A stretch of 64,000 nucleotides of DNA from Thermoplasmata archaeon (GTDB lineage Archaea; Thermoplasmatota; E2; JACPAO01; JAHFTW01), in NCBI GenBank assembly GCA_034667725.1, contig JAXDQS010000003.1, forward strand, positions 448,001 through 512,000, read 5' to 3'. The notes beneath the pieces are model-generated. The model ran no database searches, had not been told where the DNA came from, and saw only the letters and a list, made by a program, of their open reading frames with translations. Position numbers and translations under genes: made by a program. This document shows, one piece after another, positions 25,593 to 30,365 of the stretch; position 1 is the first letter of the stretch, and each line of letters opens with the position of its first letter.

Positions 25593-26951
25593 TCAGACCA
25601 GCTTGAGGACTTCCATGCCGCGGCCCAGGTCGCCGGTGAAGACGTAGCCGTTCCAGGCGCGGGCGTTCCAGGTGTTGATGCCCTCGGCCTGGTACTGGTC
25701 CAGCATGACGGGGGCCTTGGGGTCCGAGAAGTCGATCAGCAGCACGCCGGCGGAGTACCAGGCGATGACGATCTTGTCCTCGCCGGGCAGGACGGTGCCG
25801 AAGTGGGCCGTGCAGTTGGGGACCGCGGTGTAGGCGCTGCCCGCGGCCTGGCCGGCGACACTAGGATCTTGGTGGGGCTCGGTCGGCACGGCGGGCGCCT
25901 GCGGGGCGACGGTGGGCGGGGAGATCCAGCTCAGCATCACCGGGTCGGCCGGGTTCGAGATGTCGTAGAACCACAAGGCGCCCAGCGGCGTGGACAAGCC
26001 CGTCGTCTCCTCCTGGGCGAAGCAGGCGCCGGGGTTGCCGCCGCCGCGGTGCTCGTCGCCGATCAGCAGGATGTCGCCGTCGTTCGAGGCGGCCGCGAAG
26101 TGGTGCAGGTTGCGCGCCGGCGTCGTCCCGATGCCCGTCGGGTTGGGCGGGATGGGCGGGTTGGCGATGGGGGAGCCGACGATGGGCGAGTCCAGGTCCG
26201 ACACGAAGCCGAGGAGCTTGATGTTGAAGTCGCGCTTGGTGACGTCGAGCTCGGTCAGGTCCCAGATCTCGGTGCGCTGGATGGCGGCGCAGTAGGCGCG
26301 CAGCGTGCCCTGGCCGAAGACGCCGCTGAAGGTGGTGCCGTGGCAGCCGTGGGTGCCGAAGTCGCCCAGGATGCGCGGGTTGTAAGGGTCGGAGGCGTCG
26401 ATGAGCGCGTTCGAGCCGCCCACACCCTTGGACGGGTTGTTGAAGACGTACTCGGTGCCGGGGACGACGGCGATGTTGTGGTTCGCCTCGAACTCGACGA
26501 TGCTGGCAAACCTGGGGTTGTGGACGTCGGTGACGTCCCAGAAGTGCATGCCGTTGGTCTGGGTCGCAAGCACGAGGGTGCGGCGGCCGTCGGGGTGCGC
26601 GATGACGTCCGCCTTGCGGCTGTAGGGCGTCTCGGAGTCGTCGGGGCTGTCGTAGACCAGCTTGGGGTGGGTCGGGTCCGAGATGTCGGCGATGAAGAAG
26701 CCCTCGTTCTGCGCGGAGCCGAAGACGTAGTCGCCGGCCACGACGTTGCCCGAGCCGATCGGGTAGGCGGTGCCGTTGTCCCACGTGAGGCGGGCGACGG
26801 GCTCGAGGCCGACGGCGCGGGGCGGCTGGACCGAGGCGAAGCTGGGCTCCATGCTGAAGCCGGCGGGCTGCGGGGGCAGCGGCTCGTCGGGGTTGGTGCA
26901 GCCGGCCAGGAGAGCGGTGGCCAGGAGAAGGACAGGCAGAAGGGCGCGCAT
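25593..26951 (-). CDS. LVIVD-repeat beta-propeller lipoprotein
   Basis: LLAGC; repeated I/F-x-D-[IV]-[ST]-D-P-x-x-P; C-terminal GDLGRGMEVL. Confidence 0.85.
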   Translation of the reverse strand: MRALLPVLLLATALLAGCTNPDEPLPPQPAGFSMEPSFASVQPPRAVGLEPVARLTWDNGTAYPIGSGNVVAGDYVFGSAQNEGFFIADISDPTHPKLVYDSPDDSETPYSRKADVIAHPDGRRTLVLATQTNGMHFWDVTDVHNPRFASIVEFEANHNIAVVPGTEYVFNNPSKGVGGSNALIDASDPYNPRILGDFGTHGCHGTTFSGVFGQGTLRAYCAAIQRTEIWDLTELDVTKRDFNIKLLGFVSDLDSPIVGSPIANPPIPPNPTGIGTTPARNLHHFAAASNDGDILLIGDEHRGGGNPGACFAQEETTGLSTPLGALWFYDISNPADPVMLSWISPPTVAPQAPAVPTEPHQDPSVAGQAAGSAYTAVPNCTAHFGTVLPGEDKIVIAWYSAGVLLIDFSDPKAPVMLDQYQAEGINTWNARAWNGYVFTGDLGRGMEVLKLV

Positions 26952-27002
26952 CAGGGCCGAGGTCGGATGGGGGGGCAAAAGCGTTGCGGCAGTTGGACGG
27001 CC

Positions 27003-28235
27003 TTAGACCAGCGCCAGCACGTCCAGCCCGCGCTGCGAGTCGGCGGCGTACACGTGCCCTTCGTGGTAGCGTGCCTCCCACACCGAGGTCGGGGCGGCCT
27101 GGTGGACGGCGGCCACCTGGCGGGCCGCGGCGGGGTCGCTGAAGTCGACGAGGACGGTGCCGCCGGCGTACCAGCCGAGGACGATGAGGTCGTGGCCGTC
27201 GATGACGTCGCCCAGGTGCGTGCTGCAGTAGGCCGTCGGGCCGGGGGTCTCCTGGGCGCCGACCTGGTCGTACTCGAGCTGGAAGTAGCCGACGGGGGTC
27301 GGGTCGGCCAGGTCGGAGATGTCGAAGAACCAGAGCGCCGAGGTCGGGTAGCCGGCGGTGTCGGAGCAGGGCGGGGAGGGGGTCAGCACGCCCGCGAACT
27401 CGTCGCCCAGCACCAGCAGGGTGCCGTTGCGCGCGTCCCAGACGCCGTGGTGGATGTTGGTGCCGGGCCAGTCGATGACCTGCTGGATGACCGGGTTCAG
27501 CGGGTCGGTCGTGTCCCAGATCATGGTGTCCGAGACGCCGGCGCAGTAGGCGCGGTGCAGCTCGGCGTTGAAGGTCATCTCGTGGCAGGTGGTGGCGGTG
27601 ACGGGGCGGGGCGTGCCGCCGACGGTCACGACGACGGCCGGGAACGGGAACACCTTGACCGTCGGCTTGGCGGGGTCGGTGAAGTCGAGGATATCCACTT
27701 GGCCGGTCTCGCCGGCGCCGGGGACGTGGGTGCTGATGCTGCGCGAGTTGTAGACGACGGCGGTGCCGGGCACGACGGCGATGGTGTGCGAGCCAGGCAG
27801 GTCCACCGTGGTGACGACGAAGGGCGCTTCGGGCTGGGTCACGTCCACCAAGAGGACCGAGGCGAGGCCGCCGTTGGCCATGACGGCGTACCGGTGCCCG
27901 TTGGGGTGCAGGAAGACCTCGACGTCGCGGGTGTTCTCGGTGCCGTCGGCGCCGCTGGAGACCAGGACGGGGGCCGTCGGGTCGGAGACGTCCACGATGC
28001 GCAGGCCCGCGCTGCCCGACTGGTAGACGAGGTCGCGGTCCGCCTCGATCCAGATGCCCAGCGTGCTGTTGCCCTCCGCGTTCAGGAGGAACTGCATCCC
28101 GGTGAGGGGCTCGGGCACGCCGAGGGGGGCTTGCGCGGCGGGCGGGGACTCGGTCGGCGGCGCCGTCGGGTCGTCCTGGACGCTGATGCAGCCGGCGGCC
28201 AGGAGGGCGGCAAGAAGGACAAGGAGGGCGCGCAC
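27003..28235 (-). CDS. LVIVD-repeat beta-propeller lipoprotein (paralog of neighbour)
   Basis: LAAGC; IVDVSDP repeats; ADSQRGLDVL; GTG start inferred. Confidence 0.85.
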   Translation of the reverse strand: MRALLVLLAALLAAGCISVQDDPTAPPTESPPAAQAPLGVPEPLTGMQFLLNAEGNSTLGIWIEADRDLVYQSGSAGLRIVDVSDPTAPVLVSSGADGTENTRDVEVFLHPNGHRYAVMANGGLASVLLVDVTQPEAPFVVTTVDLPGSHTIAVVPGTAVVYNSRSISTHVPGAGETGQVDILDFTDPAKPTVKVFPFPAVVVTVGGTPRPVTATTCHEMTFNAELHRAYCAGVSDTMIWDTTDPLNPVIQQVIDWPGTNIHHGVWDARNGTLLVLGDEFAGVLTPSPPCSDTAGYPTSALWFFDISDLADPTPVGYFQLEYDQVGAQETPGPTAYCSTHLGDVIDGHDLIVLGWYAGGTVLVDFSDPAAARQVAAVHQAAPTSVWEARYHEGHVYAADSQRGLDVLALV

Positions 28236-28294: not shown

Positions 28295-28801
28295 TTATTC
28301 GTACTCGAACTGCCGCGAGTGGACCCACGCGATCAGGTCGAGCGCCACCTCGCACGACTCCGACACCTCGGGGTTCGGGTCGTGCAGGAACCGCTCCAGA
28401 ACGGGGACCGACGCCAGCTCGCCGATGGCACCCAAGGCCTCGGCGCATTCGTGGCGCACCATGACGTGCTCGTGCGGCTTCGCCAGCACCTCGGTCAGGA
28501 ACGGGACGGCGTGCGGGTCGCCCATCTGGCCGAGGACGTAGGCCAGCTCGTGGCGCAGCAGGGCGCTGGGGTCCGCGAACGCGGCCGCCAGCGCCTCGAC
28601 CGCCTCGGCGCCGCCGCGGTTCCGCAGCGCGAACACGGCGCGCATGCGCTGGAACATCGGCAGGCCGCGGTCCAGCAGGCGGGCGCGCAGCTCCGGCACG
28701 GTGGGGACGCCGGGCTTCGCCAGGTCTTGCGGCGGGGCGGGGTCCGTGCTGGTGTAGCCGGTCGCCTCGCGCATGGCGGCGAGCTGCGCCTTGCGGTCCA
28801 T
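28295..28801 (-). CDS. HEAT-repeat protein resembling one half of deoxyhypusine hydroxylase
   Basis: DPAPP, RAVFALRN, SALLRHELAYVLGQM, MVRHECAEALGAIG, ESCEVALD; two HE motifs 33 aa apart. Confidence 0.85.
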   Translation of the reverse strand: MDRKAQLAAMREATGYTSTDPAPPQDLAKPGVPTVPELRARLLDRGLPMFQRMRAVFALRNRGGAEAVEALAAAFADPSALLRHELAYVLGQMGDPHAVPFLTEVLAKPHEHVMVRHECAEALGAIGELASVPVLERFLHDPNPEVSESCEVALDLIAWVHSRQFEYE

Positions 28802-28826: not shown

Positions 28827-30365
28827 TCAGGCTTGCGGCGCGGCGGGGCGCTCCAGGAGCGGGGTGCCGCCGGACTGGAGGGCGGCGCGGATCTCGATGT
28901 ACTTGCCGCCCTGGAGCGGGTCGGCGGGGTAGGCGATGAACAGCCGGCCGTCGGGGGTCGCCTCGGCCTCGAAGAAGTCCAGGAGGGCGCGGTCGGAGCC
29001 GGTGGGCTGGCAGGTGCCGCCGCGGGTGCAGACGCCGCCGAGGTGGACGTCGGGGTCCACGATGGTCTCGACGACGGTGGCGTTCGGGGTGCCGAAGCCG
29101 TCGAGCACCCAGGTGCGCAGGCCCCATTGGGCGGGCTCGTAGTCGGAGTCGGTCATGGTGGTGCCGACCAGGGCGGCCACGGCGAACCGGTCGCCGGCGC
29201 CGCCGACCACCCACGGCATGATGGGGCTGGCCTTGACCATCGCGTCGCCAGGCAGGACCGTCATGACCTCCATGGCGGCGGGCGGGTCCCAGGTGGCGCC
29301 GCCGTCGGCGCTGCGCAGCAGCCACAGGCTCGTGCCCATGGGCGCCGCCCCTGTGGGCATGGCGGACGGCCAGAAGTCGGTGGCGTAGGCGACGACGACG
29401 GTGCCATCGCCGGTGACGTCGAGGGCGGGCGCCATGTGCAGGCCGCTCCAGTGGCCGCCGGTGTCGGTGGTCCGCCAGGTGGCGCCGGTGTCGAGGATTT
29501 CCCACGTGCGGCCGCCGTCGCGGGTGCGGGCGACCTTCATGGTGAACTCCTGGCTGCCGTAGAGGATGGCCGCGGGCGCGGTGCTCGGCTGCGTGAACGG
29601 GATGTAGGCCGTGGTGGCGTCGGGGGCGAAGGCGACGGGGCCCAGCCAGCCGATGTCGCTGCCGAGGGCGAGCGCGCCGGTCCAGGTGGCGCCGCCGTCG
29701 AAGGTGGTGTTGACGAGGACGGCGCGGCCCTGCTGCTTGCCGTCCATGTCCTTGCCGGAGCCCATCCAGGCGACGACGAGGTGGCCGGGGGCGCCGGCGG
29801 CCATCCATTGCCGGTCGCTGCCTTCGCCCTGCTCGACGACGCTGCCCAGGTACGTCCAGTTGCCGTCGCGCCAGGCGTGGACCTGGATGCCGCCGCCGCC
29901 CAGGTTGCTGGCGTAGAGCGTGCCGGCGGCGTCGACCGCGACCTCGGCGTCGCCGTTGGCGGCCGGGCCGTCGTCGGAGTAGCGGCCGTCGCCGGCGCGG
30001 TTGAGGCGGGTCCAGGTGGCGCCGTCGTCGGTGGAGCGGTACACTAGGCCGTGGCCGCAAGTGTCCTGGCCCGGCACGTCGACGAGGTAGAAGCCGGCGT
30101 CGCAGCCGGGGAAGGCCACCGCGAGGGAGCCGTCGAGGGCGGCCCAGGCGCTGGGCTCGCCGCCGCCGTACACGGGGCCGGTCTTGGCGATGGCGCCGAG
30201 GAGGGTGAAGGTGGGGGCCTCCAGGGCGGCGGGCTCGACGGCGCCTTGCAGCACGTGGGTCCAGGGCGCGGGCGGGGTCGGAGCGGACGGCTGGGGGTCC
30301 GGGTCCGTGGGGTTGGTGCAGCCGGCCACGAGGGCGAGGACCGCGAGGAGGGCGAAAGCGCGCAT
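28827..30365 (-). CDS. Lipoprotein with BNR/Asp-box repeats
   Basis: LVAGC; STDDGATW, TFDGGATW, TRDGGRTW, SADGGATW. Confidence 0.85.
   Translation of the reverse strand: MRAFALLAVLALVAGCTNPTDPDPQPSAPTPPAPWTHVLQGAVEPAALEAPTFTLLGAIAKTGPVYGGGEPSAWAALDGSLAVAFPGCDAGFYLVDVPGQDTCGHGLVYRSTDDGATWTRLNRAGDGRYSDDGPAANGDAEVAVDAAGTLYASNLGGGGIQVHAWRDGNWTYLGSVVEQGEGSDRQWMAAGAPGHLVVAWMGSGKDMDGKQQGRAVLVNTTFDGGATWTGALALGSDIGWLGPVAFAPDATTAYIPFTQPSTAPAAILYGSQEFTMKVARTRDGGRTWEILDTGATWRTTDTGGHWSGLHMAPALDVTGDGTVVVAYATDFWPSAMPTGAAPMGTSLWLLRSADGGATWDPPAAMEVMTVLPGDAMVKASPIMPWVVGGAGDRFAVAALVGTTMTDSDYEPAQWGLRTWVLDGFGTPNATVVETIVDPDVHLGGVCTRGGTCQPTGSDRALLDFFEAEATPDGRLFIAYPADPLQGGKYIEIRAALQSGGTPLLERPAAPQA

What the first reader, a model, noticed from the sequence alone, without database searches (positions are those of the whole stretch)
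28295..28801. Half-size deoxyhypusine hydroxylase (DOHH) homolog in an archaeon
Seen: 168 aa with H84-E85 and H117-E118 (33 apart) and motifs YTSTDPAPP, LLD..PMFQRMRAVFALRN.GG, SALLRHELAYVLGQ, MVRHECAEALGAI, ESCEVALD and terminal FEY. Known: eukaryotic DOHH is a pseudo-dimer of two HEAT halves with four HE motifs (human H56, H89, H207, H240; 33 apart within each half) forming an O2-dependent di-iron site. Archaea have aIF5A and deoxyhypusine synthase but no recognised DOHH. From memory, the motifs match the linker and C-terminal half of human DOHH far beyond generic HEAT similarity. Inference: a homodimer rebuilds the di-iron site and completes aIF5A hypusination. It may represent the pre-duplication ancestor of DOHH or a transfer from eukaryotes.
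Basis: partly seen in the sequence, partly recalled or inferred. Interest (0 to 1): 0.9.

Follow-up and report, generated by a model that had tools for sequence, protein, structure and literature searches.

The report
Half-size archaeal deoxyhypusine hydroxylase homologue
This soil archaeon (phylum Thermoplasmatota) has a well-conserved gene for one lobe of the two-lobed iron enzyme that eukaryotes use to finish the hypusine modification of translation factor 5A; the hypusine literature says archaea lack this enzyme, and two copies are predicted to pair and rebuild the two-iron site.

Summary
Window 28295-28801 (minus strand) encodes a 168-aa protein.

- **Closest relative:** by sequence and by fold it is human deoxyhypusine hydroxylase (DOHH, 4D4Z; E 1.3e-64; 0.8 A rmsd). 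Other HEAT families score far lower.
- **Catalytic residues:** H84, E85, G91, H117 and E118 are present in 114/114 archaeal homologues. The same positions are present in both lobes of 102 full-length DOHHs (those sampled are eukaryotic).
- **Gene integrity:** the gene is single-copy, single-lobe in all 94 loci examined, and under purifying selection (dN/dS 0.13-0.29).
- **Distribution:** it occurs in 107 of 401 sampled Thermoplasmatota genomes, including Marine Group II. It occurs only in families that carry heme-copper oxidase.
- **Dimer and substrate:** a homodimer model passes its controls (0.87 vs 0.21), with both His at the interface. The genome also encodes aIF5A with the K-P-G-K-H-G loop, and deoxyhypusine synthase.

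My best reading is a homodimeric di-iron deoxyhypusine hydroxylase of aIF5A. Activity is inferred, not shown.

The origin is unresolved. Whether this is a pre-duplication form or a captured C lobe cannot be decided: three rooted topologies lie within 1 lnL unit.

It is not a universal archaeal solution, because several aerobic families lack it.

Papers up to 2018 state that no archaeal DOHH is known, and I found no later report of one. Annotation pipelines already name relatives "deoxyhypusine monooxygenase". This scan has flagged the same family before on many other genomes.

The parts
28295..28801 (-). Half-size DOHH homologue gene: 168 codons plus the stop codon at 28295-28297
   Evidence: ORF and translation. 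Human DOHH 4D4Z at E 1.3e-64. Foldseek top hit 4d4z_B, rmsd 0.8 A over 129 columns, 52% identity. dN/dS 0.13-0.29 against nine orthologues.
28730..28759 (-). N-terminal tail motif G-Y-T-S-T-D-P-A-P-P (residues 15-24), equivalent to the eukaryotic inter-lobe linker
   Evidence: G15, T17, S18, D20, P21, A22 and P23 are invariant in alignment A1. The consensus Y-x-S-V-D-P-A-P-P is shared by all archaeal clades and by the linker in front of the eukaryotic C lobe, and is absent in front of the N lobe. Residues 19-23 lie in the modelled dimer interface.
28322..28699 (-). HEAT-repeat core, residues 35-160 (eight helices, four hairpins): one DOHH lobe
   Evidence: Pfam HEAT_2 and HEAT_PBS. AlphaFold2 model with mean pLDDT 89.5 and helices at 35-43, 49-62, 64-76, 80-93, 96-106, 113-126, 129-137 and 144-160.
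28547..28552 (-). First His-Glu pair, H84-E85 (aligns with human H56-E57 and H207-E208)
   Evidence: Alignment to 4D4Z. H and E are present in 114/114 archaeal halves. H84 is in the dimer interface. Human ligand list from PMC3306375.
28529..28531 (-). G91, the invariant glycine seven residues after H84 (aligns with human G63 and G214)
   Evidence: Present in 114/114 archaeal halves and 102/102 of each lobe of the full-length DOHHs. Its role in substrate binding in human DOHH is recalled from memory (Kang et al. 2007) and was not checked here.
28448..28453 (-). Second His-Glu pair, H117-E118 (aligns with human H89-E90 and H240-E241)
   Evidence: Alignment to 4D4Z. Present in 114/114 archaeal halves. 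H117 is in the dimer interface.

Best explanation
The gene encodes a single-lobe deoxyhypusine hydroxylase. Two identical 168-aa subunits, each made of four HEAT hairpins, pair concave face to concave face, as the N and C lobes of eukaryotic DOHH do within one chain. Each subunit supplies H84, H117 and E118 to one iron, so the dimer rebuilds the non-haem di-iron centre. E85 and G91 from both subunits line the substrate cleft. The conserved N-terminal tail (Y-x-S-x-D-P-A-P-P, the counterpart of the eukaryotic inter-lobe linker) packs onto the partner subunit. Using O2, the enzyme hydroxylates the deoxyhypusine side chain that deoxyhypusine synthase has built on the lysine of the K-P-G-K-H-G loop of aIF5A, giving hypusine. 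Shown here: specific homology, fold, residue conservation, single-lobe architecture, purifying selection, co-occurrence with the substrate pathway and with aerobic respiration, and a dimer model that passes its controls. Inferred: iron binding, dimerisation in solution, the substrate and the chemistry. Whether the single-lobe form is the ancestor of eukaryotic DOHH or descends from its C lobe is unresolved.
For: - **Specific DOHH homology:** human DOHH is first at E 1.3e-64, both lobes align (N 103 bits, C plus linker 119 bits), and CpcE and YibA are around 1e-4.
- **Fold:** the AF2 model (pLDDT 89.5) superposes on 4d4z_B at 0.8 A over 129 columns.
- **Catalytic positions:** H84, E85, G91, H117 and E118 are in 114/114 archaeal halves and in both lobes of 102 full-length DOHHs. 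Outgroup HEAT arrays lack His at both sites. The human iron ligands H56, H89, E90, H207, H240 and E241 are listed in PMC3306375.
- **Architecture:** there is one locus in this genome, and all 94 archaeal loci are single-lobe, many in stop-to-stop frames of only 160-182 aa.
- **Selection:** dN/dS is 0.13-0.29.
- **Homodimer plus 2 Fe model:** score 0.87 against a best control of 0.21. Calibration: the mark was reached by 20 of 30 proteins solved as pairs of one chain and 1 of 23 solved as single chains. The runs share at least 74% of contacts and partner pLDDT is at least 86. The symmetric interface contains residues 19-23, 84, 113-114, 117 and 144-159.
- **Substrate pathway in the same genome:** aIF5A at 145.7 bits with the K-S-K-P-G-K-H-G-A-A-K loop; DHS at 333 bits plus a paralogue; no EF-P.
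- **Oxygen:** this genome has COX1 (E 1.7e-159). In the phylum sample the gene occurs only in oxidase-bearing families (f1 17/18, f31 51/58, f13 22/36, f15 7/9). It occurs in 0 of 156 genomes of six families that lack the oxidase (two sub-threshold COX1 hits in f10 aside).
- **Fit with published biology:** aerobic archaea contain hypusine while anaerobes stop at deoxyhypusine (PMC9599864).
Against: - There is no biochemical evidence; every functional step is inferred.
- The dimer pass may reflect the model's memory of the solved two-lobe human structure.
- The gene is not linked to aIF5A or DHS. DHS lies 134 kb away and aIF5A on another contig, and the neighbours are lipoproteins and iPGM.
- Several aerobic Thermoplasmatota families lack any homologue even with the family profile: f38 0/5 complete genomes, f28 0/2, f27 0/1. 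The enzyme is therefore dispensable or replaced elsewhere.
- No spermidine synthase, AdoMet decarboxylase or pyruvoyl arginine decarboxylase was found in this 90%-complete genome, so the donor for the preceding DHS step is unclear.
Confidence: 0.68

Rival explanations
1. It is a homodimeric di-iron oxygenase with the DOHH fold that acts on a substrate other than aIF5A-deoxyhypusine, for example a free polyamine, another aminoalkyl-lysine or another protein.
For: There is no genomic linkage to aIF5A or DHS. The classical spermidine route is not detected. The gene is absent from some aerobic relatives, which must therefore either lack hypusine or make it another way.
Against: The residues that align with the human substrate-cleft positions (E85, G91, E118) are as invariant as the metal ligands. 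The whole concave face is 46-49% identical to eukaryotic lobes. Eukaryotic DOHH is known to have a single substrate (PMC3306375), and that substrate's archaeal counterpart is encoded here.
Confidence: 0.15
2. Origin rival A. The archaeal gene descends from the C lobe plus linker of an already duplicated eukaryotic DOHH, captured by ancient transfer into Thermoplasmatota and kept as a homodimer.
For: The N-terminal tail equals the eukaryotic inter-lobe linker. The core is slightly closer to C lobes (48-49%) than to N lobes (45-46%). The quick tree and one C20 evaluation favoured A+C. With my tools the family was found in only one archaeal phylum.
Against: A+C is not significantly better than the alternatives (p-AU 0.45-0.49). 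On the larger set the tree with N+C held together had a log-likelihood 24.8 units higher than the free quick-search tree, in which A+C were already a clade. Archaeal halves are never nested inside eukaryotic C lobes; C and N are each monophyletic and the archaeal sequences form a basal grade. The archaeal core is closer to both lobes than the lobes are to each other (39%).
Confidence: 0.35
3. Origin rival B. The single-lobe homodimer is the older state, and eukaryotic DOHH arose from such a gene by tandem duplication and fusion, with the second copy's tail becoming the linker and the first copy's tail being lost.
For: The archaeal core is 46% and 49% identical to N and C lobes, while N and C of one protein share only 39%. 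N and C are each monophyletic and the archaeal halves form a basal grade. The N+C-constrained tree was best in two analyses. All named two-lobe forms seen are eukaryotic and all archaeal forms are single-lobe.
Against: This topology is not significantly better than the others. A homodimer must serve both roles, which could hold its sequence near the N/C consensus whatever its origin. Presence in Asgard archaea was not tested.
Confidence: 0.45
4. It is a non-catalytic HEAT scaffold, a truncated pseudogene or an assembly artefact.
For: Pfam and NCBIfam see only generic HEAT repeats. The only sequencing run that holds the stretch is probably the source sample.
Against: The same intact single-lobe ORF occurs in 107 of 401 sampled genomes and in more than 90 independent assemblies. 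dN/dS is 0.13-0.29 and all ligand positions are invariant. Decayed copies are rare: one genome has two in-frame stops and one has a TGA.
Confidence: 0.02

Closest known systems
Eukaryotic deoxyhypusine hydroxylase (human DOHH, PDB 4D4Z/4D50; yeast Lia1; EC 1.14.99.29)
   Same: It has the same HEAT-hairpin lobe (0.8 A rmsd, 52% identity to one lobe) and the same His-Glu pairs 33 residues apart. It shares the invariant Gly after the first pair and the Y-x-S-V-D-P-A-P-P segment. Both organisms have the substrate pathway (IF5A with the K-x-G-K-H-G loop, plus DHS), and both settings need O2.
   Different: It has one lobe (168 aa, four hairpins, two HE pairs) instead of two lobes in one chain (about 300 aa, eight hairpins, four HE pairs), so the active site needs a homodimer. 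The linker motif sits at the free N terminus. The host is an archaeon. The activity is untested.
Phycobilisome HEAT proteins (CpcE/CpcF lyase, NblB) and E. coli YibA
   Same: They share the Pfam repeat type (HEAT_PBS, HEAT_2) and the alpha-solenoid fold.
   Different: The scores are far below family cut-offs (NblB 32 vs 300 bits; CpcE 19.7 vs 330 bits). The PDB E-values are about 1e-4, against 1e-64 for DOHH. Generic HEAT arrays lack His at both HE positions.
Alternative archaeal and protist routes to (deoxy)hypusine (Haloferax agmatine-dependent DHS pathway; bifunctional Trichomonas DHS)
   Same: They address the same question of how aIF5A is modified in organisms without a recognised DOHH (PMC5178350, PMC6105217).
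   Different: Those routes use DHS itself, or stop at deoxyhypusine. Here a separate DOHH-type hydroxylase candidate exists. This genome lacks detectable speE, speD and pyruvoyl ArgDC but has two arginase/agmatinase-family genes, so the donor for the first step is open.

Membership tests
Deoxyhypusine hydroxylase (DOHH/Lia1, EC 1.14.99.29) | Best and specific sequence similarity to DOHH rather than to other HEAT-repeat families | tested here: met
   4D4Z scores E 1.3e-64, against CpcE 4.9e-5 and YibA 1.9e-4. Full-length eukaryotic DOHHs are 46-61% identical. DOHH-like halves are monophyletic against HEAT arrays, SH-aLRT 99.
Deoxyhypusine hydroxylase (DOHH/Lia1, EC 1.14.99.29) | [quoted passage not shown] | tested here: met
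   H84-E85 and H117-E118 are present. They occur in 114/114 archaeal halves. The human ligand list comes from PMC3306375.
Deoxyhypusine hydroxylase (DOHH/Lia1, EC 1.14.99.29) | Eight HEAT repeats in one chain forming a symmetrical dyad of two lobes (four HE pairs) | tested here: not met
   The protein has one lobe only, with four hairpins and two HE pairs. There is no second locus in the genome. All 94 archaeal loci are single-lobe.
Deoxyhypusine hydroxylase (DOHH/Lia1, EC 1.14.99.29) | Two lobes facing each other so that the His/Glu ligands of both form one di-iron site | tested here: met
   This is met in silico only. The homodimer plus 2 Fe model scores 0.87 against a best control of 0.21. 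The mark was reached by 20 of 30 proteins solved as pairs of one chain and 1 of 23 solved as single chains. Residues 84 and 117 are at the symmetric interface. The pass may come from memory of 4D4Z, and it supports binding without showing it.
Deoxyhypusine hydroxylase (DOHH/Lia1, EC 1.14.99.29) | The substrate is available: IF5A with the modifiable lysine loop, and a deoxyhypusine synthase | tested here: met
   aIF5A matches TIGR00037 at 145.7 bits and has the K-P-G-K-H-G loop. DHS matches PF01916 at 333 and 222 bits.
Deoxyhypusine hydroxylase (DOHH/Lia1, EC 1.14.99.29) | O2-dependent chemistry, so an aerobic host is expected | tested here: met
   COX1 is present in this genome (E 1.7e-159). 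The gene is found only in oxidase-bearing families and in 0 of 156 genomes of six families without the oxidase. Related genomes are not independent samples, so this is supportive only.
Deoxyhypusine hydroxylase (DOHH/Lia1, EC 1.14.99.29) | Di-iron content and hydroxylation of deoxyhypusine-IF5A to hypusine | not testable with these tools
   This needs the recombinant protein, metal analysis and an enzyme assay or mass spectrometry.
Phycobilisome lyase / NblB HEAT proteins (CpcE, CpcF, NblB) | Score above the curated family cut-off of the NCBIfam equivalog models | tested here: not met
   NblB scores 32.1 bits against a cut-off of 300, and CpcE 19.7 against 330.

The most novel reading that the evidence does not exclude
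The single-lobe homodimer is the ancestral form of DOHH. On this reading, hypusine hydroxylation existed in aerobic archaea before eukaryotes, and the eukaryotic two-lobe enzyme arose from such a gene by tandem duplication and fusion, with the tail of the second copy surviving as the inter-lobe linker. The family would then be both the long-sought archaeal DOHH for the lineages that carry it and a living example of the pre-fusion stage of a pseudo-symmetric metalloenzyme.
Probability: 0.35. Interest if true: 0.88.

Novelty: new variant of a known kind. Interest (0 to 1): 0.75.

Why it matters
Hypusine is an essential modification found on only one protein, translation factor 5A. Primary papers up to 2018 state that archaea have the first enzyme (DHS) but no homologue of the second (DOHH), and that the archaeal pathway is therefore unsolved. 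The later papers I read report no archaeal DOHH, although hypusine has been measured in aerobic archaea.

A conserved, catalytically intact, single-lobe DOHH homologue in Marine Group II and related aerobic Thermoplasmatota gives a concrete candidate. A 168-aa protein can be tested directly for dimerisation, iron content and activity on aIF5A.

It also gives a natural experiment on how a pseudo-symmetric di-iron enzyme relates to a symmetric homodimer.

The limits matter as well. The gene is absent from several aerobic relatives, so another hydroxylase must still exist elsewhere in Archaea.

Tried and rejected
- **Quick ML tree:** it grouped archaeal halves with C lobes (SH-aLRT 92). I rejected this as evidence because a constrained N+C tree had a higher likelihood and all later AU tests were non-significant.
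- **Computing limits:** full C20 tree searches and background jobs were too slow or were killed on one CPU, so I used PMSF instead.
- **Fused or prokaryotic two-lobe forms:** the longer-length search and the contig context of the best full-length hits showed only eukaryotes among those that could be named or placed.
- **Spread to other phyla:** the search with the most divergent member (L017) returned only 51 hits, and the named ones are Thermoplasmatota or 'Euryarchaeota'. The Atlas listed 164-170-aa HEAT clusters in Nitrososphaerota and Bathyarchaeota. I could not fetch those sequences, so they remain a lead only.
- **Gene-neighbourhood link to aIF5A or DHS:** none was found. Only iPGM and a lipoprotein recur, and only within the window's own clade.
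- **Expression:** no RNA holder was listed. The single DNA holder is a soil metagenome that is probably the source of the assembly.
- **Classical polyamine genes:** speE, speD and pyruvoyl ArgDC were not found in this 90%-complete genome.
- **PF01287 search for aIF5A:** it found nothing, but the control also missed Haloferax. TIGR00037 did find aIF5A.
- **16S rRNA:** not found in the assembly.

Full report
**Observation.** Window 28295-28801 holds, on the minus strand, an ATG-initiated ORF of 168 codons. They include H84-E85 and H117-E118, which lie 33 residues apart. The preceding gene on the same strand ends at 28827, only 25 bp upstream, so there is no room for a missing N-terminal lobe. 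The whole 2.32-Mb genome (26 contigs, about 72% GC, 90% complete) has only this one DOHH-like locus.

**What it resembles.** Pfam and NCBIfam see only generic HEAT repeats, and the phycobilisome-type models score far below their cut-offs (NblB 32 vs 300 bits, CpcE 19.7 vs 330).
- Against all PDB chains, human deoxyhypusine hydroxylase (4D4Z) is first at E 1.3e-64. Both of its lobes align to this one protein: the N lobe at 103 bits over residues 39-162, and the C lobe with the preceding linker at 119 bits over residues 13-165.
- CpcE and YibA reach only about 1e-4.
- An AlphaFold2 model (mean pLDDT 89.5; eight core helices) superposes on 4d4z_B at 0.8 A over 129 columns with 52% identity.
- H84, E85, H117 and E118 align with these ligand positions.

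**The organism and the pathway.** The genome encodes aIF5A (TIGR00037, 145.7 bits) and no EF-P. Its aIF5A has the K-S-K-P-G-K-H-G-A-A-K modification loop.
- There are two DHS-family genes, scoring 333 and 222 bits.
- A heme-copper oxidase subunit I is present at E 1.7e-159.
- Spermidine synthase, AdoMet decarboxylase and pyruvoyl arginine decarboxylase were not found. Two arginase/agmatinase-family genes are present. The aminobutyl donor for the DHS step is therefore unclear. Haloferax shows that an agmatine route can also end in deoxyhypusine (PMC5178350).

**A conserved family, always half-size.** The word-indexed protein search returned 1,716 relatives of 92-294 aa at E<=1e-10.
- The closest are 165-195-aa proteins from Thermoplasmatota MAGs at 65-88% identity.
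- Several of these are already auto-named 'deoxyhypusine monooxygenase' by JGI or NCBI.
- In GTDB genomes the gene is in 23/24 genomes of the same family and in 107/401 genomes sampled across the phylum.
- Named records show two main groups of carriers. One is groundwater, sand and soil Thermoplasmatota, the window's own clade. The other is Poseidoniales (Marine Group II).
- In all 94 loci I fetched, the match is a single lobe. Many lie in stop-to-stop frames of only 160-182 aa.
- In an alignment of 20 own-clade members, the tail residues G15, T17, S18, D20, P21, A22 and P23 are invariant.
- Across 114 archaeal halves H84, E85, G91, H117 and E118 are present in every one. The same holds for both lobes of 102 full-length DOHHs, apart from two Asp at the E85 position in N lobes.
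- Generic HEAT arrays lack His at both positions.
- dN/dS against nine orthologues is 0.13-0.29.
- Misassembly, truncation and pseudogene readings are therefore excluded.

**Ecology of presence.** I searched the same 401 genomes for COX1.
- The DOHH-half occurs only in families that carry the oxidase: f1 17/18, f31 51/58, f13 22/36, f15 7/9 and a few small families.
- It was found in 0 of 156 genomes of six families without it (f4, f5, f8, f9, f10, f23).
- This fits an O2-dependent enzyme. It also fits the published pattern that aerobic archaea have hypusine while anaerobes stop at deoxyhypusine (PMC9599864).
- Related genomes are not independent samples, so this is supportive only.
- Other aerobic families lack the gene even when searched with the family profile: f38 0/5 complete genomes, f28 0/2, f27 0/1, and f26 has only weak generic HEAT arrays.
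- The enzyme therefore cannot be the universal archaeal solution.

**Quaternary structure.** A homodimer with two Fe ions scored 0.87 in the controlled complex test, against a best control of 0.21.
- In the calibration this mark was reached by 20 of 30 proteins solved as pairs of one chain and by 1 of 23 solved as single chains.
- The runs share at least 74% of their contacts, and partner pLDDT is at least 86.
- The interface is symmetric. It contains the tail (residues 19-23), H84, residues 113-114, H117 and the last helix (144-159). The ligands of the two subunits therefore face each other as the two lobes do in human DOHH.
- Because that two-lobe structure is solved, the pass may be from memory. 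It shows likeness and supports pairing, but does not demonstrate it.

**Origin.** Over the 123-column core the archaeal protein is 46% identical to N lobes and 49% to C lobes, whereas N and C lobes of the same protein share 39%. It therefore sits near the N/C node.
- The tail motif Y-x-S-V-D-P-A-P-P is shared by every archaeal clade and by the linker in front of the C lobe of the full-length DOHHs. It is absent in front of the N lobe.
- All two-lobe forms I could name or place by context are eukaryotic.
- With HEAT arrays as outgroup, DOHH-like halves are monophyletic (SH-aLRT 99).
- The placement of the archaeal halves is not resolved. A quick tree gave A+C (92, not starred).
- Holding N+C together then gave a tree 24.8 lnL units better.
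- On a leaner 47-row set the three rooted alternatives differ by at most 1.4 lnL under LG+F+G4 (p-AU 0.44-0.52).
- Under PMSF-C20, with each constraint optimised, they differ by less than 1 lnL (p-AU 0.37-0.63).
- A C20 evaluation of trees optimised under the other model favoured A+C without rejecting N+C (p-AU 0.15).
- In the PMSF-optimised trees, N and C are each monophyletic. In all six trees the archaeal halves form a basal grade and are never nested inside a eukaryotic group. A recent transfer from a particular eukaryote is therefore not supported.
- Ancestor versus ancient capture of a C lobe stays open, with a slight lean to the single-lobe form being older.

**Context.** The neighbours are two LVIVD-repeat lipoproteins downstream, a 695-aa lipoprotein without Pfam domains upstream, and iPGM. 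iPGM recurs near the gene in 22 own-clade loci and the lipoprotein in 15. Neither recurs in Poseidoniales. This indicates vertical inheritance within the clade and no operonic link to aIF5A or DHS.

**Literature and prior art.**
- PMC5178350 (2016), PMC6105217 (2018) and PMC3306375 (2012) state that no archaeal DOHH homologue is known.
- A 2022 paper and a 2026 review that I read mention none.
- Full-text searches combining DOHH or deoxyhypusine with Thermoplasmatota, Asgard, Poseidoniales or Marine Group II found no report.
- Automated pipelines do name relatives 'deoxyhypusine monooxygenase'.
- This scan has flagged the family before: 61 notes in at least 59 genomes. Those notes are AI leads. 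I re-tested their shared claims here independently.
- Their claims of more distant relatives beside DHS in Nitrososphaerota and Caldarchaeum could not be tested with the genomes I can reach.

**Verdict.** This is a real, conserved, single-lobe DOHH homologue. It is most likely a homodimeric di-iron deoxyhypusine hydroxylase acting on aIF5A in aerobic Thermoplasmatota (confidence about 0.68). It is a new variant of a known enzyme kind, with an unresolved but interesting evolutionary relation to the eukaryotic enzyme.

Noticed in passing
L002 (G000:C3:342153-343022) and L003 (G000:C2:107388-108314): The genome has two deoxyhypusine-synthase-family genes (PF01916: 333 and 222 bits). The second could be a homospermidine-synthase-like or otherwise specialised paralogue.
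   Followed up: partly
whole genome G000; L105 (C10:66173-67042) and L106 (C3:288781-289608): No spermidine synthase, AdoMet decarboxylase or pyruvoyl arginine decarboxylase was detected in the 90%-complete genome, but two arginase/agmatinase-family genes are present. The polyamine donor for aIF5A modification is unclear and may follow a Haloferax-like agmatine route.
   Followed up: partly
window 25593-26978 (-), 27003-28235 (-), 28827-30329 (-): The DOHH-half is flanked by three predicted lipoproteins with Cys-containing signal peptides. Two are paralogous LVIVD-repeat proteins and one is a 695-aa ORF (true start probably internal) with no Pfam match. The last recurs next to the gene in 15 related loci.
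   Followed up: partly
G290:C122:4347-4766, G268:C36:95396-95845, G015:C61:10129-10413, G373 (two loci): There are rare departures in other genomes: one copy with two in-frame stops (TAG, TAA), which looks like a decaying gene; one copy with an in-frame TGA; and two genomes with a second full or partial copy.
   Followed up: no
families f38, f26, f27, f28 of the phylum sample (e.g. G105, G115, G216, G259, G278): These are aerobic (COX1-positive) Thermoplasmatota families with no DOHH-half, even with the family profile. If they make hypusine, as reported for Thermoplasma acidophilum, a different hydroxylase must exist.
   Followed up: partly
ESM Atlas clusters: Clusters of 164-170-aa HEAT proteins in Nitrososphaerota and Bathyarchaeota score 0.95-0.96 by language-model features. 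They may be more distant half-size relatives, but their sequences could not be fetched to check the His-Glu pairs.
   Followed up: no
L025, L041 (CAZVJB010000002.1, CAZXUC010000001.1) and L027 (JAZJZE010000002.1): Records carrying close orthologues (69-74% identity) are labelled 'uncultured Halobacteriales archaeon' or 'bacterium'. These are probably taxonomic mislabels of high-GC Thermoplasmatota MAGs.
   Followed up: no
L014-L017 (G026, G028, G025, G030; same order, families f2 and f3): DOHH-halves from the other families of the window's own order are more divergent from it (about 53% identity) than those of Poseidoniales (about 58-60%), and they branch separately. The gene tree and the taxonomy disagree, through either unequal rates or transfer within the phylum.
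   Followed up: partly
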